NCBI GenBank assembly: GCA_011052815.1
Contig: DRIG01000095.1
Coordinates: forward strand, 8,943 to 72,942
Direction: 5' to 3'
Length of the DNA: 64,000 nucleotides
Source of the DNA: a candidate division WOR-3 bacterium
Lineage (GTDB): Bacteria; Hydrothermota; Tepidihabitantia; SM23-42
Each line of letters starts with the position of its first letter. The stretch's first letter is position 1. Positions 1 to 16,377 of the stretch are shown piece by piece. Position numbers and translations under genes: made by a program. Under the pieces are notes generated by a model. It worked only from the letters and a program-made list of their open reading frames with translations. It did no database searches and was not told the origin of the DNA.

Positions 1-615
1 ATCACCGGGAGGTGTCTCACCATAATTTTCCCTGATTGCTTTATAAAATTTGATTATCGATTCAAAATCATACCCGGCGCGCATCGCATATAAAATTCCA
101 TATTCATCGGCTTCGAACTCCTGCTGTCTCGAATACCCTTTTTCTAAAATCTGAACGATCTCCGAAGGTATCGCCGCTCTTTCCTCATCCATAAAATTTT
201 TCAATCTCTGCCAGGCGACCGAATGTCTGAGAAAGACATGTGCGATTTCATGACCGAGAATACCGGCAAGCATGGACTGACTCTCTTCTGTTTTCAAAGA
301 ATCCAGAAAATTGAGCATCCCGAGTGTTACATAAATAGGTCCGGCGGGAAGTGCAAAGGCGTTTACAACATCGGTATTCAGAATACGGCAGTCGAAGATC
401 GTACGCAGGTCTGACGCCCTCATTATTTTTCGGGCGATGGGCACAACACGGTTCACCAGGACAGTATCCGTTATTATCTCATTCTGACTTTCTATCAGCT
501 TCACCGCCTCTTCACTGATTTTTACGGCAAACGCCGGTCCGGGTTCGACCTTCTGGCCGAAGACCGGTATAAAAAAACCGACAAAACATATTAAGCACAT
601 CTTAAATATCTTCAT
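1..615 (-). CDS. M48-family zinc metallopeptidase with a signal peptide. It is partial: the C-terminus runs off the window start.
   Basis: The minus-strand translation from the ATG at 613-615 gives a signal-peptide-like N-terminus (MKIFKMCLICFVGFFIPVFG) and an HExxH zinc motif (GHEIAHVFLRH), typical of M48/BepA-like peptidases. The ORF track misses it because it is truncated. Confidence 0.7.
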   Translation of the reverse strand, partial: MKIFKMCLICFVGFFIPVFGQKVEPGPAFAVKISEEAVKLIESQNEIITDTVLVNRVVPIARKIMRASDLRTIFDCRILNTDVVNAFALPAGPIYVTLGMLNFLDSLKTEESQSMLAGILGHEIAHVFLRHSVAWQRLKNFMDEERAAIPSEIVQILEKGYSRQQEFEADEYGILYAMRAGYDFESIIKFYKAIRENYGETPPGD

Positions 616-646: not shown

Positions 647-676
647 GGGGGCACTGCATAAAAAACCAGTGCCCCC
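647..676 (-). terminator. GC-rich hairpin (GGGGGCACTG ... CAGTGCCCCC) downstream of the 688..1392 gene. Likely the terminator of the CHAT operon.
   Basis: A 10-bp perfect stem, 12 bp after the stop codon of the 234-aa gene. G5/C5-stem hairpins recur after other genes in this window. Confidence 0.45.
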
Positions 677-687
677 CATATGTAAAA

Positions 688-1392
688 TTAATCCCAGAGA
701 TTCCAGGTGAACGTCTCGTCTTCACCGATATCCCGGTATATCGGACCCCAGAAATAATCGGTATAAGTACCTTCTCCATATAGTTTGGTATAACCTTCCC
801 AGATTTTATAATATGAATAATAACCCGGAGAAAGGGTTCCCTTGTACCAACCGTCGATATAGATATCTATGGTCCAGGAAGAATAATTGTTAACCCTGAC
901 CCAGCAATATCCTCTGGTCTGGGAAGCGACGAGTTCATATTCTTTGGCGAGCTTCATAAATTCATCGGCCTTCGCATTGTCTCCCAAACCGAAGATTGCA
1001 TCCTTATAAAAATCAGCAACCGCCCGGGCGAGCTTTGCGTTCTTCTGTTCTTTTGCCAATTCACCTACCTCTTCGAGCAATGCGGCGGCGGTGATTATGC
1101 TGCTTTTTTTACCGGACATCTTCTCTGCGCAGAAAAGAAGTGAAACCGCTGCGAGTAAATCATTACCGTCTTTCTGATGACGGGCGTTATCAATCATTTC
1201 ACCGATGTCACCCAGAAAATCATAAGTAGGATCGATCTCATCCTGAATATTTTTATACTTCAATTTCTCCACCGTCAGTTTTTCTGAACCGGTCTTCAGT
1301 TCCTCTCCCTTTCCCTTTTGGGCAAACGTTAATCCGGGGATAACCAGTGCGGCAACCAGTAAGATTGCCAGTATTTTTGTTGCGACTTTCAT
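688..1392 (-). CDS. Secreted hypothetical protein with a W/Y-rich C-terminal domain; third gene of the FecR-like/CHAT operon.
   Basis: N-terminal signal peptide (MKVATKILAILLVAALVIPGLTFA). No recognisable catalytic motifs. It is 94 nt downstream of the CHAT gene on the same strand. Confidence 0.55.
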   Translation of the reverse strand: MKVATKILAILLVAALVIPGLTFAQKGKGEELKTGSEKLTVEKLKYKNIQDEIDPTYDFLGDIGEMIDNARHQKDGNDLLAAVSLLFCAEKMSGKKSSIITAAALLEEVGELAKEQKNAKLARAVADFYKDAIFGLGDNAKADEFMKLAKEYELVASQTRGYCWVRVNNYSSWTIDIYIDGWYKGTLSPGYYSYYKIWEGYTKLYGEGTYTDYFWGPIYRDIGEDETFTWNLWD

Positions 1393-1486
1393 TTTACCTC
1401 CTTTCTTGATTGATCTGTTTTTATATCCCGGTAATCAAAGGTTGGATTGATGCTTATATATATAAAACAACCGTTCTTATTTGATA

Positions 1487-4297
1487 TCATCGCCAATCCC
1501 CGATTACCACAAACGGTGCCCAGAAAAACGGGCGATCGAGAAACTCCTGTTTCTTCAACCACCGCTGGGCATTGCACAAAGCATTCGTCTTATCTGTATC
1601 TTTCAGATTTTGATAAAATCTCATCATCAGAAGGACAGTGGAAAGATCACTGACCTTCCAGAGCGAAGCGACCACGGATGAAGAGCCGGCATATATAAAG
1701 GCGCGGCTTAAACCGGTGAGTTCATCGCCCATCAAGCCGACTTCGGAAAAACCCCGTAATTGACCTGTTTCACATGCCGACAATGTAACAAGGTATGCAT
1801 CGATTTCCAGATTGAAGATTTCCCGTACCTTCAGATAACCGTCGTTCTTTTCATCTTTGGAGAGGATAATACGCGATTCAAGAGCGGAATCACCCGGTGC
1901 AAGTTTTCCATGGGTCGCGAAATGGATGATGTCAAAATCCTTGAGAAATCGCTTTGCATTGGTTTCTGATGGTTGTGGTAATGAACTGTCGGCGTCGGAA
2001 AAGATTCTTAAATCAGGCAGCGCCTTCGTGGCGAGAATGGAATCCGTCTCCTCTTTTGTCCCCGGCAGAGAGAGATCAAACCACTCCGGGTGTTCGGAAA
2101 AATCCGCCTTGGCGAAAATAACCGCTTTCGCTTTCCGGCTTTTGTTCTTTCTCCGGGCGATTTCATATACAGAAGCCGACGGAGCGTAGAATATGTCGTA
2201 TCTGTCAATCAAGAGCGACAAAGGGTCTTTTCCAATGACGATTGCGGCGAACGGAAGATGATGCAAAACACCGTAGGGGATAATGCATAACCTCTCTTTA
2301 TTCTGGATTTCCGTCATCAACGGATTCAAGAGAAATGTATAGAACCATTCTGATAAAACCAGGAGTTCGTCATCAGTATAATTAACCCTGCGTTTGATTA
2401 TCTTACGGTACTTATCAACCTTCTCGTAGATCCGTACCGCCGGAACGTCAATCTTTTTGACACTCAGGCTCGTACTCGTAACGACAAAAACATAAGCGTT
2501 CTTCACACCGATGAAGTACTCAACAATCGCGGTGGCGTCATCCAGTATTGACTGAAGTCGTTTTATTTCAATCGGTTTTACTGATTTCAGAGTAGTGTAC
2601 TCCGGATACACCCGCTCCAGCTCATCTAAGACATTATTGTGTTCCATTATCACATCACGCTGTTCAAGGGTTCCCGCTAAAAATTCAATCTTTTTTTCGA
2701 GCATCTGTTCTTTCTTTATCAACGAAACAACCTCGGAATCCAGGCCTTCTTTACCGGTAAGTTCTGCACCGGCAAGCAGATCAAGAAAAGCCCGCGCCTT
2801 TGCCCGTTCTGCATAGTTGAAAGCCTCCTCTGCTTTTCCTTGCTGATAGTAGATGTTGATAAGCTCTTCGTAGACCCTTATCTTGTTATCAAGATATGCC
2901 GAGCGGAAATCCTGACCCGTGATCTTACCCCGTAAATCTTCAATGATCGCAACCGCGTCGGTCAAAGATTCTATCGCTTCATCAGGTACGCCGCTGCGGT
3001 GCTGGGCAAAACCAAGATTGGCAAGAAGAGACGCCTTCCAGTCTTCCCGTTTAATATTTTCGATCACCCTGTATGCTCTCTTGTAATCAGCCACGGCTTT
3101 TTTATAATCACCCTGGAGCACAAAGAGATTACCCAGATTGCTTAATACCTTGGCTGCACCCAGCCTGTCGTCAATATCTTGATAGAGTTTCAATGCCTTT
3201 TTATAATTCCCCTCTGCGGTTTTATATTCGCCTTTCTTCTCATATAAGACTCCAAGATTATTATAATAATGGGCTTCGCCCTGTTTATCCTTTATTAAAT
3301 CATTTGCCAGATCATAATAGTATAAAGAAGAATCATAGTACGACTCATCTTCTGTCGCCAGCAGGGTATAAACAAAACCGATATTCTGGAAGGTCTCTCT
3401 CTTCCATGTGATATTCTTCATCTTTTCGAAGATATCACGGGCACGAAACAGAAATGTCAGGGCACTGTGATACTTTCCCATAGCAATGTAGAGTAAGGCG
3501 ATATTATGGAGAAGCTCTCCTTCACCGAGGAGGAATTCTTTCCCGGCTTTAATGCTGTCGGCAAGATTCAACGCACACAGAAAATTTCTGTATGCCGCAT
3601 CGTATTCACCCATCCTCCGCTGAACATTTCCGATCTCACGATATGCCTCATAAGCGCTTTTGTAATAACGGTGTTTTAAAGAGAGTGAACAGGAAGCGGA
3701 AAAATACTCCAGGGCGCTGTCACTGACCGCCTGCTGGACGAAAAGAGAACCGAGGAAATAACATCCGTCGATAATGCCTTTTTTATAATCAATGGATTTT
3801 GATCTCTCGACAGCCCGAAGCAGATAATCGCTTGCATCTTTGTATCGTCGCTTTGCCAAAAACAACCTTCCGAGCATCATCAGAACATTGCTCTCGTCTA
3901 TCCGGTCTGAAATCGTCTTTTCCTTCACCCTGCCGATGGTCTTCAATGCATCATTAAAATACTTCTGCGCCCGGGATAACTCGCCCTGGTAAAAAGCGAG
4001 TGAGCCAAAATTCAAATAAATTTTTGCTTCACCGCTTAAGTATTTTTCTTTCTTAAAGATCTTCAGGGCTTCGGTATAATAATCGTCTGCAGCAGCCGGG
4101 TCACCGAAGCATAGCGCGATATTCCCGAGTCCTTTCAAACAAAGACCTCTGTCAATACCCTGGACAGTCTTCAACAGTTCAATATAGATGGTCTCAGCCT
4201 GAGCAAAATTTTCATTATAGAACAGGGAATCAGCAATGTCCAGCAATGAACCAACAGGTTCTTCTTTGGTAATCAGAAAGAATAACAAGAAGATCAT
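1487..4297 (-). CDS. TPR-repeat protein with a C-terminal CHAT (caspase-like) protease domain and a hydrophobic N-terminus.
   Basis: Many TPR-like repeats, then the CHAT His/Cys dyad signatures HFATHG and SACETG near the C-terminus. Its start overlaps the stop of the upstream gene (ATGA). Confidence 0.8.
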   Translation of the reverse strand: MIFLLFFLITKEEPVGSLLDIADSLFYNENFAQAETIYIELLKTVQGIDRGLCLKGLGNIALCFGDPAAADDYYTEALKIFKKEKYLSGEAKIYLNFGSLAFYQGELSRAQKYFNDALKTIGRVKEKTISDRIDESNVLMMLGRLFLAKRRYKDASDYLLRAVERSKSIDYKKGIIDGCYFLGSLFVQQAVSDSALEYFSASCSLSLKHRYYKSAYEAYREIGNVQRRMGEYDAAYRNFLCALNLADSIKAGKEFLLGEGELLHNIALLYIAMGKYHSALTFLFRARDIFEKMKNITWKRETFQNIGFVYTLLATEDESYYDSSLYYYDLANDLIKDKQGEAHYYNNLGVLYEKKGEYKTAEGNYKKALKLYQDIDDRLGAAKVLSNLGNLFVLQGDYKKAVADYKRAYRVIENIKREDWKASLLANLGFAQHRSGVPDEAIESLTDAVAIIEDLRGKITGQDFRSAYLDNKIRVYEELINIYYQQGKAEEAFNYAERAKARAFLDLLAGAELTGKEGLDSEVVSLIKKEQMLEKKIEFLAGTLEQRDVIMEHNNVLDELERVYPEYTTLKSVKPIEIKRLQSILDDATAIVEYFIGVKNAYVFVVTSTSLSVKKIDVPAVRIYEKVDKYRKIIKRRVNYTDDELLVLSEWFYTFLLNPLMTEIQNKERLCIIPYGVLHHLPFAAIVIGKDPLSLLIDRYDIFYAPSASVYEIARRKNKSRKAKAVIFAKADFSEHPEWFDLSLPGTKEETDSILATKALPDLRIFSDADSSLPQPSETNAKRFLKDFDIIHFATHGKLAPGDSALESRIILSKDEKNDGYLKVREIFNLEIDAYLVTLSACETGQLRGFSEVGLMGDELTGLSRAFIYAGSSSVVASLWKVSDLSTVLLMMRFYQNLKDTDKTNALCNAQRWLKKQEFLDRPFFWAPFVVIGDWR

Positions 4298-5250
4298 TTT
4301 CCCCCGTTGAGCAAGGCTTCGTACTGCTCAAGATATCTGTTTCCAAGCCCGGTAAGTCCGTATCTGTTATAGAGAATTGAAAGTGAACGATAAAGAGTCG
4401 GATTATCAGGGTCCATCTCCAGAAGGGTTCTATACTCATTTATCGCATCACCTATCAATCCTTTTTCTTCATATATTTTGGCACTTAAAAAGTGGACGGT
4501 AAAAGGATCAGGACTTTGAGATTTGATATTGTTCAAAATATCATGAAGCTCGTTGATGACATCAGAAGATAAAACCTTGATGTGCCGTTCAGCCGTGCTG
4601 ACTGTGTCATTATCCTTTATTGCCGCAATCTTCAAGAAATAAAATCCCGGTTTAAGTTCGGCTTCATCCTCAGGATAGGTCAGAATCGTATCAATAGTCG
4701 TTCTGCACCAGACAACATCACCCATCTTCATAAGTTGAACAATGTATGATTGAACATCTGGAAATTCCGACCAGACAATATCCGGTCTTCCCGTAAGTAA
4801 TGTACTGTTCCCTGGTTTATAAACGACGATATTCAAAGTATCTTCTTCTCCCCTTACCAGAACCTTTAAACCGCTCTTTTCACCCTCGGCGTTGAATACA
4901 AATAAAGGCGATAATATCGATTTCGTCTCCTGGCCCAAGCCGGTTTCATCGGGAGCGCCCCGAACAACTGTATCTGCAGGTGAAACCTCAATTTTTATAC
5001 TCTCCCCTTTGGTGAGGGAAAGAAGTTTACCGCTGTTGCAGTAAAGAATCGTGACCTGACCGTCGGTATCTGTTCTCAAACTGTCACCGGCGAAAAGCCC
5101 GTCTTCCAGGTGGGCGGGAATAAACTCTTTTTCACCGGCACGGTGAATCTTGACATCCCCTTTGACTGCCGTTATTACAGCAACCGCTTTAATCCCTTCC
5201 TCAACCTCATTCTGCAGGTATAATATCAAGCAGAACCAGAAAACCAGCAT
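4294..5250 (-). CDS. Membrane-anchored FecR-like domain protein with C-terminal TPR; first gene of the CHAT operon.
   Basis: N-terminal hydrophobic segment. A FecR-type beta domain pattern (VKGDVKI...AGDSLRTDTDGQVTILYCNSGKLLSL), then TPR-like helices. It is translationally coupled to the CHAT gene. Confidence 0.55.
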   Translation of the reverse strand: MLVFWFCLILYLQNEVEEGIKAVAVITAVKGDVKIHRAGEKEFIPAHLEDGLFAGDSLRTDTDGQVTILYCNSGKLLSLTKGESIKIEVSPADTVVRGAPDETGLGQETKSILSPLFVFNAEGEKSGLKVLVRGEEDTLNIVVYKPGNSTLLTGRPDIVWSEFPDVQSYIVQLMKMGDVVWCRTTIDTILTYPEDEAELKPGFYFLKIAAIKDNDTVSTAERHIKVLSSDVINELHDILNNIKSQSPDPFTVHFLSAKIYEEKGLIGDAINEYRTLLEMDPDNPTLYRSLSILYNRYGLTGLGNRYLEQYEALLNGGK

Positions 5251-5293
5251 TCATCTCCTTTCAATAAATTATATGCACAGGAAGTACTATGTA

Positions 5294-5321
5294 AGTATAA
5301 CTAATTTTAAATAATTGTCAA
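5294..5321 (-). promoter_or_regulatory. Sigma-70-like promoter for the FecR-like/CHAT operon.
   Basis: On the minus strand: TTGACA (rc of 5316-5321), N16, TATACT (rc of 5294-5299). A GGAG ribosome-binding site precedes the ATG at 5250. Confidence 0.45.
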
Positions 5322-5393
5322 TGATACCCTCATTTTTTTCCTCTAAAAAAGAAATTTTTGTGAAAATCGATGATTTAACTCCATTTGTTGTTG

Positions 5394-5421
5394 TTGACAA
5401 TTATGAAAATTCTAATATAAT
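5394..5421 (+). promoter_or_regulatory. Consensus sigma-70 promoter driving the tRNA Arg-Lys-His cluster.
   Basis: TTGACA 5394-5399, 16-nt spacer, TATAAT 5416-5421. This sits about 175 nt upstream of the first tRNA. Confidence 0.5.
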
Positions 5422-5596
5422 AAATTAAAAATTAAATGGTATGAGGCCTCCACGAATGTTTTTGTCGCCGTTTACAAAAACTGAGTGGAGAATAGGGGGG
5501 AGAATCCCCCATCATTAAGGGGGGTTCAAAGGCTTCCGAAAGGAATTTTTCGGTGTTTAAAAATTCCGTCAGGGAAAAAGGGGGTGCTCCCCCTTT

Positions 5597-5670
5597 GCGC
5601 CTGTAGCTCAGTTGGATAGAGCAACGGATTTCTAATCCGTAGGTCGTGGGTTCGAATCCCTCCAGGCGTG
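5597..5670 (+). tRNA. tRNA-Arg (anticodon TCT)
   Basis: Cloverleaf with GCGCCTG/CAGGCGT acceptor stem, TTCGAATCC T-loop, and anticodon loop TTTCTAA. Confidence 0.85.
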
Positions 5671-5675
5671 TATCT

Positions 5676-5749
5676 GCCCCGCTAGCTCAATCTGGCAGAG
5701 CAACGGATTCTTAATCCGTGGGTTGCAGGTTCAAGTCCTGCGCGGGGTA
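5676..5749 (+). tRNA. tRNA-Lys (anticodon CTT)
   Basis: Acceptor GCCCCGC/GCGGGGT, anticodon loop TTCTTAA, T-loop GGTTCAAGTCC. Confidence 0.85.
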
Positions 5750-5759
5750 TATAGAATGT

Positions 5760-5833
5760 GGTGAGTGTAGCTCAACTGGCAGAGCATTGGACTGTGGTTC
5801 CAATGGTTGGGGGTTCAAGTCCCCTCACTCACC
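5760..5833 (+). tRNA. tRNA-His (anticodon GTG) with the extra 5' G-1.
   Basis: G-1 followed by GTGAGTG/CACTCAC acceptor stem and a C discriminator. Anticodon loop CTGTGGT. Confidence 0.85.
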
Positions 5834-5845
5834 CTTTTTTTTCAA
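5834..5845 (+). terminator. T8 run immediately after tRNA-His; possible end of the tRNA transcript.
   Basis: CCCTTTTTTTTC directly follows the tRNA-His acceptor stem. Confidence 0.3.
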
Positions 5846-5870: not shown

Positions 5871-7034
5871 TCATCTGTTTTTCCGCCAGTATCTTCTTTC
5901 CAGTCGTTTCACCATCTCTTCACGTTTTGCGTAAAGACGGCGCAGAGGGCGCCTTTTGTGTTTTGCCAGCGCATAATGTACAAGCAACGGTAGAGCGACT
6001 GTCGCATCCAGATAACAGACTACGGCATCAGGCAGACGATTGGGATCGACCTTTCCCCAGGACACGGCTTCATGAGGAGTCGCGCCCGAAAGACCACCGG
6101 TGTCAGGACGGGCGTCTGTGATCTGGAGAAAATAATCATGCCCCACATCCGGAATATGAAGGATCTCCTGAATATGGGGTTCGGTCTGAAGCATAAAATT
6201 TTTGGGACTGCCGCCGCCGATGATCACCACTGCCGATTTGTTTTTAGAACTCTTCGCCGCATAAACAATTGCTGCGGTTTCATTGACATCAAGTGACGGA
6301 AGTATGCGTGTACTGAAATTACGAAGTCTGTTCTCTGCAAGGTGCATCCCCAGTGCGGAATCTCCGGGTGCGCTTGTATATACGGGGACCTTTGCCCGAT
6401 ATGCCGCTGCCAGGATTGATGAACCTTTGATATGATTCTTCTCTTCTTCACGCGCCGCATACTTCCCGAGCAGATAATGAAACTCGGCGCTGCCCATCTC
6501 TTTTTGGAACTCATCTTGACTCAATATCTCACGTAACCGCCTGTCTGTCTCAACCAGACAATCAGGATAACTGAGCAGAATATCATAAATTCTCACCACA
6601 TTGTTTTTCTTCAAGTCTGTATCATCAATATGATGAGTCCCCCTGTGCAGTTTAAGATTGAATGCGAAGTGAAGATCATGAAACAGATTCGCTCCTGTCG
6701 ACACAATCCAGTCGACGAATCCGGCATTGATCAAAGGAACAACAGCGGACTTCCCGAGGCCGGCGGGTGTAAGAGCACCGGACAAACTTAATCCAACATA
6801 AACTTTCGGCTCAAGCATCTTTTCCACATAAAGACGACAAGCCTCCTGAATCCGTGCTGCATTATACGCAAGGAACGTCTTATTGATAAGTTCAACAGCC
6901 CTTTCTTTACCGGTTATCGATTTCGGGAAGATTCTGGGACCTTTTAAATATCTATCTTTCAAACGCCTTTTTTTCTTAAGCCATTCAGGGCTGTAGTCAT
7001 ACCCTTTTTTATAAGGTATTCGTTTCTTCCTCAT
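5871..7034 (-). CDS. Deoxyhypusine synthase-like protein (DHS family).
   Basis: Motifs [20 protein letters not shown] and [11 protein letters not shown] match DHS family signatures. Confidence 0.65.
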
Positions 7035-7961: not shown

Positions 7962-8097
7962 ATCCCATTATATAGAGATAAAAATAAAAGTCAATCACTG
8001 AATTCCCGAATTTTTCAAGAAACAAAAAGCGGGATTGAACCGGACGACCGGTTCAATCCCGCTTCTCTTTTTCAGGTTTACGGGAGAAAGAATTTAT

Positions 8098-8553: not shown

Positions 8554-8740
8554 CTCCTTTTTGGTCTCTCTACCCTTTAGACACCCCGGCAGCGGAAAAG
8601 TTTAGTTCAACAATACTGACTTTTGCTGAAAAAAATAAAGATAGCAATAATCTGCTCTGGTGTGCCGAAGATGCTGATGCGTCGAACTTCCTTGCGATGG
8701 GTTATTGGTTCGGATTTAAATTATGATTGGAGAATAAAAT

Positions 8741-8780
8741 AAAAAACAAAAGGGGGAGTTTACTCCCCCTTTTATTTTTT
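8741..8780. terminator. Bidirectional intrinsic-terminator-like hairpin: GGGGGAG-TTTA-CTCCCCC flanked by T-runs on both strands.
   Basis: 7-bp G/C stem 8752-8769. TTTTATTTTTT follows on the plus strand and TTTTGTTTTTT on the minus strand. It lies downstream of the minus-strand lysine-rich mini-gene. Confidence 0.5.
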
Positions 8781-8790
8781 ATAATACATT

Positions 8791-9196: not shown

Positions 9197-10195
9197 ATGG
9201 AAGGGATGAAGGACGAGATTAAAAAAATCCACGAGGAGATCGAAAAAGAAAGTATTATTGTGCAGACGATAACGAATGAAATCGGCAAGGCGATAGTCGG
9301 GCAGAAATATCTTATAAACAGGCTTCTGGTCGGTCTGCTTGCGGACGGGCATATTCTGATAGAAGGTGTACCAGGACTCGCAAAGACCTATGCCGTACGG
9401 ACCCTGGCCAATGTAATAAAAACCGAATTCCATCGTATCCAGTTCACCCCTGACCTTCTTCCCGCCGATATCATCGGTACAATGGTATATAATCAAAGAA
9501 CCAATGAATTCACGGTAAGTAAAGGCCCCATCTTTGCCAATCTAATACTCGCCGATGAAATAAACCGGACACCACCCAAGGTCCAGAGTGCGCTCCTCGA
9601 AGCAATGCAGGAACGGCAGGTCACGATCGGCGACAAAACCTTTAAACTGGATGATCCTTTTATGGTGTTTGCAACACAAAATCCTATAGAGCAGGAAGGA
9701 ACATATCCACTCCCGGAAGCCCAGATAGATCGTTTTCTCTTGAAGATAAAAATTACATATCCCGATAAAAAAGAAGAGAAAGAAATAGTTGAACGGATAG
9801 CGGTCGCCGGAGAACCGAAAATCAAACCGGTCGTGGATCCAAAGACGATAATCAAAGCCCGGGAGTTGTGCAAAAAAATATATATCGACGATAAAATCAA
9901 GGACTATATCATCGACCTCGTATTCGCCACCCGAGAACCGAAATCTTTCGGCCTGGAGGAACTCTCCGGTTTAATACGCTACGGCGCATCACCACGCGCT
10001 TCAATCTATCTGACCAGTACGGCACGTGCCCTTGCGTTTCTGAAACGCCGTGGTTTTGTAATTCCCGAAGATATAAAAGAACTGGCACCGGATGTCCTGC
10101 GCCATCGAATCATTCTCACTTATGAAGCCGAAGCCGAAGAAGTCACGACCGATGACGTGATCCAGAAAATATTAAGCGGTGTTGAAGTGCCATAA
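9197..10195 (+). CDS. MoxR-family AAA+ ATPase; first gene of the Bat operon.
   Basis: Walker A GVPGLAKT, MoxR-like length and context, strong RBS. Confidence 0.9.
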   Translation: MEGMKDEIKKIHEEIEKESIIVQTITNEIGKAIVGQKYLINRLLVGLLADGHILIEGVPGLAKTYAVRTLANVIKTEFHRIQFTPDLLPADIIGTMVYNQRTNEFTVSKGPIFANLILADEINRTPPKVQSALLEAMQERQVTIGDKTFKLDDPFMVFATQNPIEQEGTYPLPEAQIDRFLLKIKITYPDKKEEKEIVERIAVAGEPKIKPVVDPKTIIKARELCKKIYIDDKIKDYIIDLVFATREPKSFGLEELSGLIRYGASPRASIYLTSTARALAFLKRRGFVIPEDIKELAPDVLRHRIILTYEAEAEEVTTDDVIQKILSGVEVP

Positions 10196-10221
10196 CTGCT
10201 ACTTACTGAACGGAGACGCTG

Positions 10222-11121
10222 ATGGCTTTACTGTCAGCTGAATTTCTGAAGAAGATAAGACGCATCGAGATCCGCACGAAGAAACTGGTCAACACGATGT
10301 TCGCCGGCGAGTATAAATCAACTTTTAAAGGAACCGGTATTGAGTTTCTTGATGTAAGGGAATATCTACCCGGCGACGATGTCAGAACCATCGACTGGAA
10401 AGTAACGGCGCGCATGGGAAAACCTTATGTAAAAAAATTCGCCGAGGATCGGGAATTGACGGTGATCCTCTGTGTCGATGCATCCGGGTCAGGCCGCTTC
10501 AGCACGCGCAATCAATTCAAGCTCGAACAAGCCGCGGAGATAGCCGCAACCCTCGCCTTCTCCGCTGTCAGGAATAATGATAAAGTCGGGCTTCTCTTTT
10601 TCACTGAACAACCGGAAAAATACATCCCGCCGCGTAAAGGAAGATTCCATGTCCTGCGTCTTATTCGGGATATCTTATATTTTACTCCCCGGCACAAAGG
10701 AACGAATCCGATACTCGCCCTTGAATTTCTCATGCACATCCTCAAACACCGCGCGATCATCTTTTTTATAAGTGATTTCATCGGTGATGCCTTCTCGGTC
10801 GATGACCTGCGTATCCCCCTTGGAGTCGTGGCGAGACGCCATGATTTTGTGGTGATAACGATAAATGATCCGATGGAACATCTCCTTCCGAAAATGGGAA
10901 TCGTTGATTTGGAAGATACTGAAACCGGTGAAATAATGACAATCAATACTTCCTCGACGTCACTGCGCAATGACTACCGGGCGCATCGTATGATGGAACA
11001 GGAAAAAAGACAACGGCTTCTGAAATCACTCGGCATCGATTCGATCGAGCTTCTCACATCCGAAGACTTCACTCCGAAACTCCATAAATTCTTTCAGGAA
11101 CGCGCCAGGAGATACAGATAA
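10222..11121 (+). CDS. DUF58 family protein (vWA-like partner of MoxR).
   Basis: Conserved position after moxR. The sequence pattern is typical of DUF58. Confidence 0.8.
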   Translation: MALLSAEFLKKIRRIEIRTKKLVNTMFAGEYKSTFKGTGIEFLDVREYLPGDDVRTIDWKVTARMGKPYVKKFAEDRELTVILCVDASGSGRFSTRNQFKLEQAAEIAATLAFSAVRNNDKVGLLFFTEQPEKYIPPRKGRFHVLRLIRDILYFTPRHKGTNPILALEFLMHILKHRAIIFFISDFIGDAFSVDDLRIPLGVVARRHDFVVITINDPMEHLLPKMGIVDLEDTETGEIMTINTSSTSLRNDYRAHRMMEQEKRQRLLKSLGIDSIELLTSEDFTPKLHKFFQERARRYR

Positions 11122-11123
11122 CC

Positions 11124-12005
11124 ATGCTGTTGCTTATTGTGTTGTTGTCACAGATCGAGATTCACGCCAAGCTCGATAAACACTTCATCAATAAAAAGCT
11201 TACGGTCGGAGAGCCGTTCCAGATAATTCTGACATTAAAATATCCTCACGACCTGGACGTCTCGACTTTCTTCGTGGATTCACTTGAGCCCTTTGTGATT
11301 ATCGATCAAAAGAATAAGATGGTGCGGGAAAAAGGTTATGTCTCAAATGTATATACAATCAAAGCAGCCGCTTTTAAGACCGGTGAGCTGGAAATTCCAC
11401 CATTCAAATTTCTATACCGCCATCATGACGGTATAGATACTTTAAAGAGCAACACCATTCCCATAAGAATTGAAAGTGTCATGCCCGCGGACATGAAAGA
11501 TATAAACGATATCAAAAAAGCAATAGAATTCCCCAACTATCTACCATTGATAATCGCTGCGGTAGTCATCATCGGTGCTCTCCTTGCGTATTTTGCTTAT
11601 AAATTTTTAAAGAGGTTGAAAAAAGAACGCATAATGAGTCGGCCCTTACCCCCTCCCTGGGTGGAGGCGCTTGCCGCGATTGAAAACATTCCTGTCGTGG
11701 AGTGGCTGGAAAAAGGTTTGATCAAAAAATATTATTATACACTTTCCGAAATTTTAAAACGCTATCTTGAACGCCGTTTTGAATTCAACGCCGCCGAGCA
11801 GACGACCACCGAAATAATAAATAATTTGAAGCTCCAGAAAGTTCCATCTTATGACGGTTTTAGGAATTTCTTCACCCAGGCCGATCTGGTGAAGTACGCA
11901 AAATTCACGCCCTCATCGGATGAGATGGAAAAAGCCGTTGATGTCGCAAAAGAACTTATTGATAAAACAAAACCTCAGACAGAAGAAAGGGAGACGAACA
12001 AATGA
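11124..12005 (+). CDS. Hypothetical membrane protein of the Bat operon (DUF4381-like).
   Basis: Single transmembrane segment mid-protein. Sits between DUF58 and batA, as in Bat operons. Confidence 0.45.
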   Translation: MLLLIVLLSQIEIHAKLDKHFINKKLTVGEPFQIILTLKYPHDLDVSTFFVDSLEPFVIIDQKNKMVREKGYVSNVYTIKAAAFKTGELEIPPFKFLYRHHDGIDTLKSNTIPIRIESVMPADMKDINDIKKAIEFPNYLPLIIAAVVIIGALLAYFAYKFLKRLKKERIMSRPLPPPWVEALAAIENIPVVEWLEKGLIKKYYYTLSEILKRYLERRFEFNAAEQTTTEIINNLKLQKVPSYDGFRNFFTQADLVKYAKFTPSSDEMEKAVDVAKELIDKTKPQTEERETNK

Positions 12006-12979
12006 GATTTGCAGAACCGTGGTATCTTCTTCTTTTGCTATTGATTATTCCATTAATCTATCTCGAAACAAAGAAGAAAAGAGCCGCCGTCAGATTCTCG
12101 GACATATCCTTTTTCAAAAACACTGCAAAATACAACCGGATTCTCCATTATCTTCCCATCAGCCTTAATATAGTTGTATTGGTTCTCATAACAATCGGAC
12201 TTGCACGTCCCCAGAAAGGCAGGGTATTTGAAGAGATTGAAACAAAAGGAGTTGATATTATACTCTGTCTGGATATCTCCACGTCAATGAAGGCGGAAGA
12301 TTTCAAACCGAAGAACCGCCTCTTCGTGGCGAAAGAAAAGGCGAAAGAGTTTATCAATAAACGACGGGGCGATCGAATAGGGCTCGTCGTATTCGCCGCC
12401 GACGCACTCACTCAATGTCCATTAACCTTTGACCATAAGATTCTGAACGAACTCATTGACTATGTCGATTTCGGAATTCTTGAAGACGGCACGGCAATCG
12501 GAATGGGTTTGGCGACCGCTGTAGCACGCCTGAAAGATTCCCGGGCAAAAGAGAAAATGATTATACTCCTTACTGATGGAGTAAACAACACGGGCGAGGT
12601 TGATCCGACGAGTGCCGCGAAGATAGCTCAGGCGTATAATATCAAAGTATACTGCATCGGTGTCGGTACCAAAGGAAAAGTTCCGTATCCGGTTGACCAT
12701 CCGATATTCGGACGTCAGTACGCACAGGTGGAGATTGATTTCAATATGGAAACATTAAATGAAATCGCAGCCGCCACCGGAGGACGGGCGTTTCTCGCTT
12801 CGGACGCCGAAGCGCTGGGGGTAATCTATGACGAAATTGATAAGATGGAGCCGACCACGTTCAAAACAACAAAACACACGGTCTATTCGGAAAAAGCCGG
12901 TTGTTTCCTCCTTCCGTCTGTGATAATTTTGATTGTGAATTTTCTCCTCAACATCACAATCTTCAGGAGGTTACCGTGA
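12002..12979 (+). CDS. batA: BatA-like von Willebrand factor A domain membrane protein.
   Basis: N-terminal transmembrane segments, MIDAS motif LDISTSM, vWA fold pattern. Confidence 0.8.
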   Translation: MRFAEPWYLLLLLLIIPLIYLETKKKRAAVRFSDISFFKNTAKYNRILHYLPISLNIVVLVLITIGLARPQKGRVFEEIETKGVDIILCLDISTSMKAEDFKPKNRLFVAKEKAKEFINKRRGDRIGLVVFAADALTQCPLTFDHKILNELIDYVDFGILEDGTAIGMGLATAVARLKDSRAKEKMIILLTDGVNNTGEVDPTSAAKIAQAYNIKVYCIGVGTKGKVPYPVDHPIFGRQYAQVEIDFNMETLNEIAAATGGRAFLASDAEALGVIYDEIDKMEPTTFKTTKHTVYSEKAGCFLLPSVIILIVNFLLNITIFRRLP

Positions 12980-14604
12980 TAAAATGGGCTGAGCCTCACT
13001 ATCTTTCTTTATTGCTGTTAATCCCGCTTTTCATCATCGGAATCATCATTTATATGATGCGTAAAAAGAAAACCTTATCAAAATTCGCCGATGACCATAT
13101 TATACCGAGAATCACCGATACATTAAATAAAAAACTTCAGGTTTCAAAATATATTTTATTGATTCTGGCATTTGCTTTCCTGGTCATAAGCCTGGCACGG
13201 CCTAAATGGGGGGAAAAATTACAAATCTACAAAGGAAAGGGAATCGACGTCGTCATCGCACTTGATGCGTCAAAGAGTATGCTTGCTCAGGACATCAAAC
13301 CGGACAGATTGACCAGGGCGAAAACCGAAATCATCTCCCTGCTCGACAATCTCACCACAGACCGTGTCGGGATAACCGCATTTGCGGGTGAATGTTATAT
13401 TATGTGTCCACTAACGACAGACATTGAAGCTGCAAAACTGTTTTTAAATGTAATCTCTCCCGAAGTGATACCTAAACCGGGTACTGATCTCGAAAAGGCG
13501 ATTTCAGTTTCATGCTCGCTCTTCAACCCTGACGAAGAAACGCATAAAGCACTGATCCTCTTTACCGACGGTGACAATCTGGTGGGTGATCCGATGTCTG
13601 CCGTTGAAAAAATAAAAGATCAGGGAGTAAGACTTTTTACAATCGGTGTCGGAACAATCGAAGGCTCACCGGTTCCGGAAATAGATGAACAGGGTAATTT
13701 CAGTTCTTACAAGAAAGACAAGGATGATAAAATCGTTATGTCCCGATTGGCGGAAAGGCTTCTTATAATTCTTGCAAAGGCAACCGACGGCAGGTATTTC
13801 AGAACTGAGGGAGTCTATATAGATAGATTGGTCGGTGAACTTGACAAAATAAAGAAGAAGGAGATCGGCGGGGGTGAGTATGTGGAATATGAGGAACGTT
13901 ATCAATATTTCCTTACCATCGCATTCATCTTTCTCTTTCTCAATATCTTTCTCACGGATCGCAGAGGCAGGTGGTTTGAAAGGCTGTTCTTACTTTTTCT
14001 GTTTTCTTGCGGTTTGAATTTTGCATATGCCGATGTGGGAGCGAATATGCGGAAAGGAAATCACCTCTGTCGTAAAGGCAAATATGAAGATGCATTACAA
14101 CAATATCAAAAGGCACTGGTTCAGGAACCGGATAATCCGAAGATCCATTATAATATGGCGCGGGCATTGTATAAAACCGAAAAGTATGATGAAGCAATCA
14201 GTGAATTCGAATTAGGACTGCTTATGAAAGATGAAAAGTTCAAAGCAAACAGCTTCTATAATATCGGCAACTGCCAGTTCAGAAAGGGACAGCTCGATGC
14301 CGCAATCAACGCCTACAAAACAGCCCTCCTTTTAAATCCAGACGATATGGAAGCTAAACAGAACCTCGAATTCTGCATCAAATTGAAAGAATCCCTCAAG
14401 AACCAGCCGCAGAGTGATTCTCTCCAGCAGCAGCAACAACAACGGCAACAAAATCAACCGCAACCTCAGCCGCAGAAAAAGAAAGGTGAAATCAATAAAG
14501 AAGAAGCTGAACGGATTCTACAGGCCCTAAAAGATAAAGAAAAAGAGAATCTGAAAAAGTCAAAACAGAAAAGAAAGAAAGAAAATGTGGCGAAAGATTG
14601 GTAG
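12976..14604 (+). CDS. batB: BatB-like vWA + TPR protein. Start revised to the GTG at 12976, overlapping the batA stop.
   Basis: The N-terminus VIKWAEPHYL is paralogous to the BatA N-terminus. MIDAS LDASKSM, C-terminal TPRs, and a Q/PQ-rich tail. AGGAGG lies 6 nt before the GTG. Confidence 0.75.
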   Translation: MIKWAEPHYLSLLLLIPLFIIGIIIYMMRKKKTLSKFADDHIIPRITDTLNKKLQVSKYILLILAFAFLVISLARPKWGEKLQIYKGKGIDVVIALDASKSMLAQDIKPDRLTRAKTEIISLLDNLTTDRVGITAFAGECYIMCPLTTDIEAAKLFLNVISPEVIPKPGTDLEKAISVSCSLFNPDEETHKALILFTDGDNLVGDPMSAVEKIKDQGVRLFTIGVGTIEGSPVPEIDEQGNFSSYKKDKDDKIVMSRLAERLLIILAKATDGRYFRTEGVYIDRLVGELDKIKKKEIGGGEYVEYEERYQYFLTIAFIFLFLNIFLTDRRGRWFERLFLLFLFSCGLNFAYADVGANMRKGNHLCRKGKYEDALQQYQKALVQEPDNPKIHYNMARALYKTEKYDEAISEFELGLLMKDEKFKANSFYNIGNCQFRKGQLDAAINAYKTALLLNPDDMEAKQNLEFCIKLKESLKNQPQSDSLQQQQQQRQQNQPQPQPQKKKGEINKEEAERILQALKDKEKENLKKSKQKRKKENVAKDW

Positions 14605-16345: not shown

Positions 16346-16377
16346 TTATTCGGACAGAAGATATCCGGGAGAGTAAA

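What the first reader, a model, noticed from the sequence alone, without database searches (positions are those of the whole stretch)
647..5321. Exported FecR-like / TPR-CHAT protease / secreted-protein operon
One predicted promoter (5294-5321) and one terminator hairpin (647-676) enclose three same-strand genes:
- a membrane-anchored FecR-like + TPR protein;
- a 936-aa TPR protein ending in a CHAT caspase-like domain (HFATHG...SACETG), with a hydrophobic N-terminus and ATGA start/stop coupling to the first gene;
- a 234-aa signal-peptide protein with a W/Y-rich C-terminal domain.

CHAT proteases are known as effectors of gasdermin and Craspase-type systems, but those are cytoplasmic. All three products here look exported and there is no gasdermin, Cas or ECF sigma factor nearby. 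This suggests a periplasmic or surface proteolytic signalling or processing module of unknown function. The third protein is a candidate substrate or partner.
Basis: partly seen in the sequence, partly recalled or inferred. Interest (0 to 1): 0.65.

Follow-up and report, generated by a model that had tools for sequence, protein, structure and literature searches.

The report
Exported caspase-like protease operon in WOR-3
The three genes are real, but they are the front half of a conserved seven-gene operon of exported proteins in WOR-3 bacteria, built around caspase-like (CHAT) proteases and including a previously unnamed small secreted protein family that usually sits next to exported cysteine proteases in other phyla.

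Summary
The three minus-strand genes, the ATGA overlap, the promoter-like site and the hairpin are all present. The interpretation needs correcting in four ways.

1. The unit is larger. In the same organism and in every WOR-3 relative with enough flank, the order is A, B, C, D, E, then G (F is a small gene next to G in two genomes). D is an M48 peptidase with TPRs, E is a TPR protein with a probable outer-membrane barrel, and G is a second TPR-CHAT. The window cuts D.
2. The hairpin is a conserved element between C and D with no U-tract. It is not the operon end.
3. Gene A is not a Pfam FecR and has no membrane anchor. It is an MtxA-like periplasmic protein: a small beta domain, a conserved disordered linker, an Ig-like domain and a TPR domain.
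4. B keeps the His-Cys dyad. Its orthologues carry classic signal peptides, but this genome's copy has a degenerate one.

Gene C has no gasdermin fold. It belongs to a family of about 412 clusters with no Pfam model. Seven of nine contexts place it beside a cysteine protease (CHAT, C14 or C39).

The most likely function is regulated proteolysis in the cell envelope. Periplasmic TPR-CHAT already has a precedent in DdvA.

The parts
5294..5321 (-). Promoter-like site TTGACA-16-TATACT upstream of gene A. A second, overlapping 10/12 site lies at 5295..5268.
   Evidence: It lies in the 345-nt region between A and the divergent tRNA genes. Function is not shown.
4294..5250 (-). Gene A, 318 aa: an exported MtxA-like protein.
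4993..5181 (-). A, N-terminal small beta-sandwich domain (aa 24-86), MtxA_N / retention-module-like.
4834..4974 (-). A, linker (aa 93-139). Disordered in the model but conserved in sequence (SPLFAFSA.GE..G.K.LVRGEED). Candidate docking or cleavage segment.
   Evidence: pLDDT below 50 for residues 93-139. F117, E124, V132, R133, E136 and D137 are invariant in both orthologue sets; G134 is invariant in 10 and nearly invariant in 12. The proposed role is inference.
4309..4824 (-). A, Ig-like domain (aa 143-226) followed by a TPR-like domain (aa 229-314).
   Evidence: This is the same two-domain arrangement as the MtxA crystal structure (PMC4439547).
4294..4297 (-). ATGA overlap of A's stop codon with B's start codon (translational coupling).
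   Evidence: The 4-nt overlap is kept in 9 of 11 related loci.
1487..4297 (-). Gene B, 936 aa: TPR-CHAT caspase-like protease.
   Evidence: A CHAT profile built from B and G hits Csx29/TPR-CHAT at E 8e-13 and DdvA (8rot) at E 2e-5. Orthologues carry classic signal peptides such as MKKAIFLIFFSVGFFFFSSSKA|YEID. This copy's own N-terminus is degenerate.
1496..2353 (-). B, CHAT domain (aa 649-934) with catalytic His796 (1910-1912) and Cys842 (1772-1774).
   Evidence: PF12770, 190.9 bits against a cut-off of 24. The dyad is invariant in 9 B and 3 G sequences and in 12 sequences that include two from an unrelated locus.
688..1392 (-). Gene C, 234 aa: a secreted two-domain protein with a signal peptide (aa 1-24), a helical repeat (about aa 49-157) and a W/Y-rich beta sandwich (aa 160-234). 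It belongs to an undescribed family linked to exported cysteine proteases.
   Evidence: Model pLDDT is 87.7. Only generic fold matches were found. 412 representative clusters match at E<=1e-3. No Pfam family was found in 60 members.
1090..1116 (-). C, exposed loop SGKKSSIIT (aa 93-101) following the family-wide invariant E90. Candidate protease contact or cleavage site.
   Evidence: The loop lies between helices 76-93 and 102-116. E90 is invariant across 60 diverse members, and G94, K95, K96 and T101 are invariant or nearly invariant in the 24 WOR-3 sequences. The proposed role is inference.
647..676 (-). Conserved intercistronic stem-loop between C and D. It is not an operon terminator.
   Evidence: -23.2 kcal/mol, z -5.1. 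There is no U-tract. A hairpin at the same position is present in 6 other loci from 5 distinct genomes, with different stem sequences that keep pairing. Gene D follows within 50-75 nt.
1..615 (-). 5' part of gene D (574 aa in full): signal peptide, M48 zinc peptidase (HEIAH), TPRs and a small C-terminal domain. BepA-like architecture. It runs off the window start.
   Evidence: The full gene is read in L005. PF01435 E 6e-21. PDB 3c37 E 2e-16 and BepA 6ait E 5e-9.

Best explanation
The finding is the promoter-proximal half of a conserved seven-gene operon of candidate division WOR-3. All seven products are exported, and none has a membrane-spanning segment beyond its signal peptide.

The genes, in order:
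- A: an MtxA-like periplasmic adaptor or sensor.
- B: a TPR-CHAT protease.
- C: a small secreted partner protein.
- D: an M48 metalloprotease with TPRs, BepA-like in architecture.
- E: a TPR protein with a probable outer-membrane beta-barrel.
- F: a small exported protein.
- G: a second TPR-CHAT protease.

Proposed mechanism (inferred). The TPR arrays assemble these proteins into a proteolytic complex in the periplasm or at the outer membrane. A is made in fixed ratio with B through start/stop coupling. A docks on or gates B through its Ig-TPR module or its conserved flexible linker. C is the dedicated partner of the caspase-fold protease, either a regulator or pseudosubstrate or a cleaved substrate. 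The conserved hairpin after C sets the amounts of A, B and C relative to D through G. Because the operon encodes no inner-membrane component, the output most likely stays in the envelope, as processing or destruction of envelope or surface proteins.

Shown here: gene content, synteny, domain identities, the conserved catalytic dyad, signal peptides in orthologues, and C's linkage to proteases.

Inferred: the physical complex, who cleaves whom, and the physiological trigger.
For: Synteny:
- A-B-C-D-E is kept in every WOR-3 locus with enough flank except L017, where E directly follows C. G follows in L001, L002, L004, L005, L012 and L015.
- Upstream neighbours differ between genomes: tRNA genes, glnA or DUF1844. 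This places the 5' boundary at A.

Export:
- C, D, E and F have canonical signal peptides in this genome.
- A and B orthologues also have canonical signal peptides.
- No internal hydrophobic helix typical of a membrane span was found.

Protease competence:
- The His/Cys dyad is invariant.
- The CHAT profile hits Csx29 at E 8e-13 and the periplasmic DdvA at E 2e-5.
- D carries HEIAH and matches M48 and BepA.

Gene A is MtxA-like. MtxA is a periplasmic protein of unknown function encoded next to a CHASE2 cyclase (PMC4439547).

Gene C's family is linked to exported cysteine proteases:
- L019: CHAT, C, CHAT, with a divergent FecR/MtxA_N protein and a CHASE2 cyclase.
- L020: C followed by a C14 peptidase.
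- L024: C followed by C14 and two S8 peptidases.
- P0049 contig: C, C14, trypsin, C14.
- L023 and L030: C14, TPR-CHAT, a WD40 protein and C.
- L025: C followed by a C39_2 peptidase.
- Most of those proteases have signal peptides or a lipobox.

The hairpin is conserved with covarying stems.
Against: - Nothing here shows a physical complex or any cleavage event.
- In this genome A, B and G start with only 10-12 uncharged residues and have no basic n-region, so their export is atypical and unverified. No signal-peptide predictor was available.
- E's barrel is inferred only. The support is a signal peptide, a C-terminal Phe conserved in 7 of 7 orthologues, alternating hydrophobic patterns, and no Pfam or PDB match.
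- One group of C-family loci (L026, L027, L029) has a histidine kinase and response regulator beside C and no adjacent protease. The protease link is therefore frequent but not universal.
- The context sample is small: 9 distinct contexts.
- L017 lacks D between C and E.
Confidence: 0.5

Rival explanations
1. Periplasmic protease-gated effector system, analogous to the gasdermin-caspase systems. A trigger sensed by the TPR, WD40 or MtxA-like modules activates the CHAT or C14 protease. The protease cleaves C, and cleaved C damages the envelope or otherwise executes a defence or cell-suicide response.
For: - C lies immediately upstream of caspase-fold proteases, as bacterial gasdermins do. This comparison rests on my own knowledge of gasdermin operons.
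- The associated protease set (C14, CHAT, trypsin-like, S8 subtilase) and the sensor-type repeats (TPR, WD40) resemble those operons.
- C has a family-wide conserved exposed GKK loop.
Against: - C does not have a gasdermin fold.
- PADLOC defence models do not match any of the seven proteins beyond generic TPR hits.
- No mobile-element or defence-island context is present. The operon sits among housekeeping genes and is conserved across WOR-3 species. That pattern is more typical of core physiology than of defence.
- C is the most conserved member of the cluster, which is unusual for a conflict-system effector.
Confidence: 0.17
2. Housekeeping envelope biogenesis and quality control. The operon is a lineage-specific outer-membrane protein or surface-protein assembly and proofreading system. 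The BepA-like D and the CHAT proteases degrade or mature stalled substrates at the E barrel.
For: - D has the M48-plus-TPR architecture of BepA and matches BepA structures at E 5e-9.
- D's C-terminal domain gives a faint BamE-like match at E 0.04.
- E looks like a TPR protein with an outer-membrane barrel.
- The operon is conserved in all sampled WOR-3 species and lies among housekeeping genes.
Against: - CHAT and C14 proteases are not known parts of any outer-membrane assembly pathway (my own knowledge).
- The C-protease pairing recurs in other phyla without D or E. The core pair therefore does not depend on a BepA-like or barrel partner.
- E's barrel is unverified.
Confidence: 0.18
3. Trans-envelope signalling relay. 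A acts like MtxA or FecR and passes a periplasmic signal, generated or shaped by CHAT proteolysis, to a CHASE2 receptor or anti-sigma factor encoded elsewhere in the genome.
For: - MtxA is encoded next to a CHASE2 adenylate cyclase (PMC4439547).
- FecR-domain proteins pair with CHASE2 kinases in Burkholderia (PMC5192318).
- In L019 a FecR/MtxA_N protein and a CHASE2 cyclase lie divergent to a CHAT-C-CHAT triad.
- DdvA couples a periplasmic TPR-CHAT to an ECF sigma factor.
- In L026, L027 and L029, C lies next to a two-component system.
Against: - No CHASE2 protein, anti-sigma factor, ECF sigma factor or histidine kinase lies in or next to the operon in any WOR-3 locus, or among the window ORFs scanned.
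- None of the seven proteins spans the inner membrane.
Confidence: 0.1
4. In this particular genome B, and possibly A and G, are not exported, because their signal peptides have decayed. Here the CHAT proteins would act in the cytoplasm or be non-functional.
For: - A, B and G start with Met followed directly by 9-11 hydrophobic residues. They have no K or R and no clear AXA-type cleavage site.
- No upstream in-frame start codon exists.
- Orthologues have longer, canonical signal peptides.
Against: - The same sequence was assembled independently from two other runs.
- All domains and the catalytic dyad are intact.
- All three atypical N-termini keep a hydrophobic core at exactly the position of the orthologous signal peptides.
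- C, D, E and F are clearly exported. Partners split across two compartments would make little sense.
Confidence: 0.05

Closest known systems
[quoted passage not shown]
   Same: Both have a TPR-CHAT module with a His-Cys dyad located in the periplasm. The CHAT profile from this operon hits 8rot at E 2e-5. In both cases the trigger and the substrate are unknown.
   Different: DdvA is fused to a zinc-binding anti-sigma domain and a transmembrane helix, and it pairs with the ECF sigma factor DdvS next to CBASS and CRISPR genes. B and G are free soluble exported proteins with no transmembrane helix, no sigma factor and no defence genes nearby.
Csx29 / TPR-CHAT of type III-E CRISPR (Craspase)
   Same: It is the closest solved CHAT by sequence, at E 8e-13 to the profile. 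Both have a TPR-CHAT architecture and an aligned catalytic Cys motif.
   Different: Csx29 is cytoplasmic, binds Cas7-11 and cleaves Csx30. No cas genes were seen among the window ORFs scanned, the NCBIfam Csx29 score is 53.5 bits against a cut-off of 300, and the orthologues here carry signal peptides.
MtxA of magnetotactic bacteria (PDB 4z29; PMC4439547)
   Different: mtxA is followed by a CHASE2 adenylate cyclase. Here the partner is a translationally coupled TPR-CHAT protease. Sequence identity is only about 19%. MtxA's own function is unknown, so the match transfers no function.
BepA (YfgC) of E. coli: a periplasmic M48 metalloprotease with a TPR domain
   Same: Gene D has a signal peptide, an M48 domain with HEXXH, and TPRs. 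It matches BepA structures at E 5e-9 and a Geobacter M48 peptidase at E 2e-16.
   Different: D has an extra C-terminal domain of about 130 aa (CAP_assoc_N-like, E 1.7e-5). It is embedded in a CHAT operon. Orthology to BepA was not established.
Bacterial gasdermin-protease operons
   Same: A small protein is encoded next to a caspase-like, CHAT, trypsin-like or subtilase protease that carries repeat domains.
   Different: C does not have a gasdermin fold. All components here are exported. No defence-model matches were found.
LapA/LapG adhesin-release system and the MpIBP retention module (PDB 5ix9)
   Different: There is no giant repeat adhesin in the operon, and no LapD, LapG or type I secretion gene was seen in the parts of the window scanned. 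The protease is of a different clan. The similarity is in fold only, and the scores are below cut-off.

Membership tests
CHAT domain proteases (PF12770; caspase-fold, clan CD) | CHAT domain match above the curated threshold | tested here: met
   B scores 190.9 bits against a cut-off of 24. G scores 223.7 bits.
CHAT domain proteases (PF12770; caspase-fold, clan CD) | Catalytic His-Cys dyad | tested here: met
   HFATHG and LSAC[EQ]TG are invariant in 9 B and 3 G sequences. H177 and C223 of alignment A9 are invariant in 12 sequences.
CHAT domain proteases (PF12770; caspase-fold, clan CD) | Peptidase activity | not testable with these tools
   Requires biochemistry.
Craspase / Csx29 (type III-E CRISPR) | NCBIfam Csx29 model above its cut-off, and an adjacent Cas7-11 (gRAMP) gene | tested here: not met
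   53.5 bits against a cut-off of 300. No cas genes were found in the neighbouring or large ORFs of the window.
DdvA-type anti-sigma TPR-CHAT | N-terminal zinc-binding anti-sigma domain, a transmembrane helix, and a cognate ECF sigma factor | tested here: not met
   B and G begin directly with a short hydrophobic leader and then TPRs. They have no membrane-spanning helix. No sigma factor gene is present in any WOR-3 locus.
DdvA-type anti-sigma TPR-CHAT | TPR-CHAT located in the periplasm | tested here: inconclusive
   Orthologues have classic signal peptides. This genome's copy is atypical. No predictor or experiment was available.
FecR (PF04773) sensors / anti-sigma factors | Pfam FecR domain match | tested here: not met
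   No hit for the window protein. Only 1 of 12 orthologues matched, at E 0.19.
FecR (PF04773) sensors / anti-sigma factors | Cytoplasmic anti-sigma domain with a transmembrane anchor, and a partner ECF sigma factor and TonB-dependent transducer | tested here: not met
   A has a cleavable-type signal peptide followed directly by the beta domain. No sigma factor lies in or next to the operon. The one TonB-dependent receptor seen lies about 17 kb away.
MtxA family | Full-length similarity to MtxA: N-terminal domain, Ig-like domain and TPR-like domain, with a signal peptide | tested here: met
MtxA family | Adjacent CHASE2 adenylate cyclase gene | tested here: not met
   No CHASE2 gene is present in any WOR-3 locus. 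It is present only in the unrelated locus L019, beside a CHAT-C-CHAT triad.
Bacterial gasdermin systems | A gasdermin-fold protein next to the protease | tested here: not met
BepA-like M48-TPR peptidases (gene D) | M48 domain above the cut-off with HEXXH, plus TPRs and a signal peptide | tested here: met
   PF01435 scores 75.5 bits against a cut-off of 20.3. The HEIAH motif is present, TPR_1 matches at E 5e-15, and the signal peptide is MKIFKMCLICFVGFFIPVFG. Orthology to BepA was not tested.
LapA-type retention module | NCBIfam retention-module model above its cut-off, with LapG, LapD and type I secretion genes in context | tested here: not met
   18.8 bits against a cut-off of 50. Only fold similarity to 5ix9 was found. 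No such genes are in the operon.

The most novel reading that the evidence does not exclude
The C family, which has no Pfam model and about 412 clusters at 50% identity across WOR-3, Ignavibacteriota, Eremiobacterota and unassigned lineages, is the dedicated partner of exported caspase-fold proteases. It would be either a protease-gated envelope effector or a built-in inhibitor. Together with MtxA/FecR-like sensors it would form a 'periplasmic caspase' pathway: a regulated proteolytic cascade that operates entirely in the bacterial envelope. It would be mechanistically parallel to the cytoplasmic gasdermin and Craspase systems but unrelated in its effector.
Probability: 0.2. Interest if true: 0.85.

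Novelty: new variant of a known kind. Interest (0 to 1): 0.6.

Why it matters
Caspase-like CHAT proteases in bacteria are currently understood through cytoplasmic immune systems such as Craspase and the gasdermin activators. The one periplasmic example is DdvA, and its signal and substrate are still unknown.

This operon offers several things:
- A free-standing, exported TPR-CHAT pair whose partners are fixed by synteny. That gives concrete candidate substrates or regulators to test: A's conserved linker and C's GKK loop.
- A name and a context for an unannotated secreted protein family, which recurs next to exported C14, CHAT and C39 proteases in several phyla.
- A second partner class for the orphan MtxA fold. 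It was previously tied only to CHASE2 cyclases. One locus, L019, contains both partner types.

If the envelope-proteolysis reading holds, it would open a route to learning what periplasmic caspase-like proteases do. It would also help in annotating hundreds of 'hypothetical' genes in uncultured lineages.

Tried and rejected
Interpretations considered and rejected:
- FecR membership for A. Pfam gave no match.
- Craspase. The Csx29 model scored far below its cut-off and no cas genes are present.
- A known defence system. PADLOC gave only TPR hits.
- The hairpin as operon terminator. It has no U-tract and is conserved between C and D.

Searches that did not help:
- The afdb50 fold library was not available.
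- A word-indexed homologue search with A, both as a single sequence and as a profile, returned only WOR-3 orthologues. I therefore could not survey how widespread MtxA-like plus CHAT pairs are.
- Metagenome locus scans with broad C-family alignments failed because no conserved stretch was found. The narrower alignment returned only 5 loci.
- E's C-terminal 423 aa gave no Pfam or PDB sequence match. E could not be submitted for structure prediction because it lies outside the window.
- Literature searches for exported orthocaspases or CHAT proteins with signal peptides returned nothing relevant beyond DdvA.
- One translation call used the wrong frame, and two calls used wrong coordinates.
Full report
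**What is in the window.** ORF listing confirms three minus-strand genes.
- A lies at 4294..5250 and encodes 318 aa.
- B lies at 1487..4297 and encodes 936 aa.
- C lies at 688..1392 and encodes 234 aa.

A's stop and B's start overlap as ATGA. The region upstream of A (5251-5595) holds an 11/12 sigma-70-like site on the minus strand at 5321..5294. It also holds a 12/12 site on the plus strand that serves three divergent tRNA genes at 5596-5834. Promoter-like matches are common in this sequence, with 25 found against 15.9 expected in 9 kb. The site is therefore plausible but unproven. C's exact sequence is deposited as a hypothetical protein of a candidate division WOR-3 metagenome-assembled genome.

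**The unit is larger than reported.** A fourth same-strand gene starts at position 615 and runs off the window. It encodes a signal peptide and an HEIAH zinc-peptidase motif. Two independent assemblies of the same sequence extend beyond the window start (L005 and L006). They give the order below.

| Gene | Length (aa) | Content |
|---|---|---|
| A | 318 | MtxA-like periplasmic protein |
| B | 936 | TPR-CHAT protease |
| C | 234 | small secreted protein |
| D | 574 | M48 peptidase, TPRs, small C-terminal domain |
| E | 652 | signal peptide, TPRs, 420-aa C-terminal region ending in Phe |
| F | 156 | small protein with a signal or lipoprotein-like leader |
| G | 1247 | TPRs and a second CHAT domain (223.7 bits) |

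The order A-B-C-D-E is kept in every related WOR-3 locus with enough flanking DNA. One locus, L017, lacks D. G follows in L001, L002, L004, L005, L012 and L015. The genes upstream of A differ between genomes (tRNA genes, glnA, DUF1844), so A is the first gene of the unit.

**The hairpin.** The stem-loop at 676..647 is strong: -23.2 kcal/mol, z -5.1, and none of 200 shuffles folded as well. It has no U-tract and the terminator scan did not call it. A hairpin at the same place, between C's stop and D's ribosome-binding site, is present in L001, L002, L003, L012, L013 and L015, which come from five distinct genomes (L002 and L003 carry the same sequence). The stem sequences differ but still pair. 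For example, the window has GGGGGCACTG/CAGTGCCCCC, L012 has GGGGCACGG/CCGTGCCCC, and L001 has GGGTGCCCCGC/GCGGGGCACCC. It is therefore a conserved intercistronic RNA element. It most likely sets the ratio of A, B and C to D through G, or stabilises the upstream transcript. That role is inference. It is not the end of the operon.

**Gene A.** Pfam gives no FecR match for the window protein. Among 12 orthologues only one matched, at E 0.19. Eleven of the 12 orthologues match MtxA_IG-like, best E 5e-6. Several also match MtxA_C and DUF7354, which one search lists as MtxA_N. A profile of A matches the MtxA crystal entry 4z29 along its full length, E 5e-6, residues 20-308 against 19-300.

The AlphaFold model has pLDDT 78.5 and shows four parts.
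- A small beta domain at residues 24-86.
- A disordered segment at residues 93-139.
- An Ig-like sandwich at residues 143-226.
- Five TPR-like helices at residues 229-314.

The disordered segment carries residues that do not vary across all orthologue sets: F117, E124, V132, R133, E136 and D137. That pattern is typical of a docking or cleavage motif (inference).

Orthologues begin with ordinary cleavable signal peptides, for example MHRLLSILLSFVIFAFC|ED. A is therefore a soluble periplasmic protein, not a membrane-anchored one. MtxA itself is periplasmic, has no known function, and is encoded upstream of a CHASE2 adenylate cyclase (PMC4439547).

**Gene B.** The CHAT domain and TPRs are unambiguous. 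The catalytic His (HFATHG, His796) and Cys (LSACETG, Cys842) are invariant in nine B and three G sequences. They are also invariant in two CHAT proteins from an unrelated locus. A profile of these CHAT domains hits Csx29/TPR-CHAT structures at E 8e-13 and the periplasmic anti-sigma factor DdvA (8rot) at E 2e-5.

B orthologues have canonical signal peptides, such as MKKAIFLIFFSVGFFFFSSSKA|YEID and MKGKIKLNDRYSIVVIIFSFFFAHA|YEID. This genome's copy starts MIFLLFFLITKEE. That is a 9-10 residue hydrophobic run with no basic residue, and no upstream in-frame start is available. A and G of this genome show the same truncation. Export of the family is well supported. Export of this particular copy is inferred.

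- Designed helical repeats match the helical domain.
- No Foldseek hit reaches E<=0.001.
- There is no gasdermin match.

The word-indexed search suggested a WOR-3-only family of 24 clusters. An exhaustive HMM search of 1.84 billion representatives gave a different picture.
- 412 clusters matched at E<=1e-3 and 75 at E<=1e-10.
- Most of the 150 best hits are full-length proteins of 225-250 aa.

None of 60 diverse members matches any Pfam family. Named members come from Ignavibacteria, Ignavibacteriales and Eremiobacterota genomes. E90 is invariant family-wide. In the WOR-3 set the exposed loop that follows it, SGKKxxxIT at residues 93-101, is also conserved.

**Genomic context of distant C homologues.** I examined nine distinct contexts, counting WOR-3 as one.

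| Context | Genes around C |
|---|---|
| WOR-3 | CHAT upstream and CHAT downstream |
| L019 | CHAT(826), C, CHAT(1853); divergent FecR/MtxA_N protein and CHASE2 cyclase |
| L020 | C followed by Peptidase_C14 |
| L024 | C followed by Peptidase_C14, then two S8 peptidases |
| P0049 contig | C, C14, trypsin, C14 |
| L023 / L030 (Ignavibacteria) | C14, TPR-CHAT, WD40 protein, C |
| L025 | C followed by Peptidase_C39_2 |
| L026 / L027 / L029 | C followed by a histidine kinase and response regulator; no adjacent protease |
| P0069 contig (too short to judge) | ECF sigma gene and a 232-aa neighbour |

Seven of nine contexts have an adjacent cysteine protease, and six of nine have a caspase-fold one. 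Most of those proteases carry signal peptides or a lipobox. This is a small sample, but the base rate of such neighbours is very low. I conclude that C belongs to an undescribed family functionally tied to exported cysteine proteases. L019 also links the CHAT-C pairing to the FecR/MtxA_N plus CHASE2 pairing known from MtxA.

**Genes D through G.** D matches M48 peptidases (3c37 at E 2e-16) and BepA (E 5e-9). It has TPRs and a further C-terminal domain. E's C-terminal 423 residues match nothing in Pfam or the PDB. E has a signal peptide, no hydrophobic helix, many alternating-hydrophobic stretches, and a terminal Phe in all seven orthologues. It is therefore a probable outer-membrane barrel, but that is inference only. 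None of the seven proteins has a membrane-spanning helix beyond its leader.

**Surroundings.** The rest of the window encodes housekeeping and envelope functions.
- A deoxyhypusine synthase homologue, Hsp20 and a Bat-like operon.
- A TonB-dependent receptor and an AcrB-type pump.
- RecN-like and DNA polymerase III subunits, among others.

No cas, gasdermin, CHASE2 or ECF sigma genes were found among the 20 ORFs scanned. PADLOC gives no defence-system match beyond TPRs.

**Most likely mechanism.** The operon encodes an envelope-resident regulated-proteolysis module, and TPR arrays provide the assembly scaffold. The proposed roles are as follows.
- A is made in step with B through start/stop coupling. 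It is the adaptor or sensor that docks on or gates B.
- C is the protease's dedicated partner, either a regulator or pseudosubstrate or a cleaved substrate.
- D, E and G extend the module to the outer membrane.

Because no component spans the inner membrane, the output most probably remains in the envelope. I put 0.5 on this general picture. The composition and location parts are much firmer than the assignment of roles. The rivals and their confidences are listed here.
- A gasdermin-like protease-gated effector system (0.17).
- A housekeeping envelope biogenesis or quality-control system (0.18).
- A relay to an unlinked CHASE2 receptor or anti-sigma factor (0.10).
- Loss of export in this genome (0.05).

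**Comparison with known systems and novelty.** Periplasmic TPR-CHAT is not unprecedented. DdvA of Myxococcus xanthus has one, with an intact dyad and an unknown trigger (PMC11506125). The premise that CHAT proteases are cytoplasmic is therefore out of date. The elements below are, as far as these searches show, undescribed.
- The free-standing exported TPR-CHAT pair.
- Its coupling to an MtxA-like protein.
- The seven-gene architecture.
- The C family and its recurrent linkage to exported cysteine proteases.

I rate it a new variant of a known kind, with interest 0.6.

Noticed in passing
window 647-676 (minus strand); L001, L002, L003, L012, L013, L015 C-D intergenic regions: The stem-loop between C and D is conserved in position. 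Its stem sequences differ between genomes but still pair. It has no U-tract, and in several loci its 3' arm abuts D's ribosome-binding site. It looks like a conserved RNA element for transcript stability, attenuation or translation control.
   Followed up: partly
window 4834-4974 (gene A, aa 93-139): This linker is disordered in the structure model yet carries residues that do not vary across orthologues (F117, E124, V132, R133, E136, D137). It is a candidate docking or cleavage motif for the co-translated CHAT protease.
   Followed up: partly
window 5215-5250, 4268-4297; L005 9095-9130: In this genome A, B and G all start with Met followed directly by 9-11 hydrophobic residues and have no basic n-region. 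Their orthologues, and C through F of the same operon, have canonical signal peptides. This is an unexplained lineage-specific trimming of three leaders.
   Followed up: partly
L019 1-16000: In an unassigned metagenome contig a CHAT-C-CHAT triad lies back to back with a FecR/MtxA_N protein, two unknown exported proteins (364 and 802 aa) and a CHASE2 guanylate/adenylate cyclase. This joins the CHAT and CHASE2 partner types of MtxA-like proteins in a single locus.
   Followed up: partly
L026, L027, L029 (C-like gene at about 1748-2497, 3416-4165 and 10001-10747): One Ignavibacteria-like group of C-family genes is followed by a HisKA/HATPase kinase and an OmpR-type response regulator instead of a protease. 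An exported-looking WD40 protein lies a few kb away.
   Followed up: partly
L025 10001-12534: A divergent C-family member in a 7.6-Mb contig is followed by a Peptidase_C39_2 papain-like protease and an unannotated 239-aa protein.
   Followed up: no
window 5596-5834 (+) and 5394-5421 (+): A tRNA-Arg(tct), tRNA-Lys(ctt), tRNA-His(gtg) cluster is transcribed divergently from the operon. A perfect 12/12 sigma-70-like promoter lies upstream of it.
   Followed up: no
window 5871-7034 (-): A deoxyhypusine synthase homologue (PF01916, E 1e-67) in a bacterial genome, next to a DUF2330 protein and an Hsp20.
   Followed up: no
window 9197-17118 (+): A Bat-like operon: MoxR-type AAA_3 ATPase, DUF58, BatA/VWA, VWA-TPR, BatD and a TPR protein.
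   Followed up: no
window 8024-8067 and 8739-8782: Two long, perfect bidirectional terminator-like hairpins (17-20 bp stems with T tracts on both strands) flank the Hsp20 gene.
   Followed up: no
window 54031-56649 (+): An 872-aa protein with a Porphyromonas-type peptidyl-arginine deiminase domain (PF04371, E 1e-53).
   Followed up: no
window 29672-33067 (-): A 1131-aa protein with AAA_16 ATPase, MalT-like TPR and BTAD transcriptional-activator domains (a STAND/SARP-like regulator).
   Followed up: no
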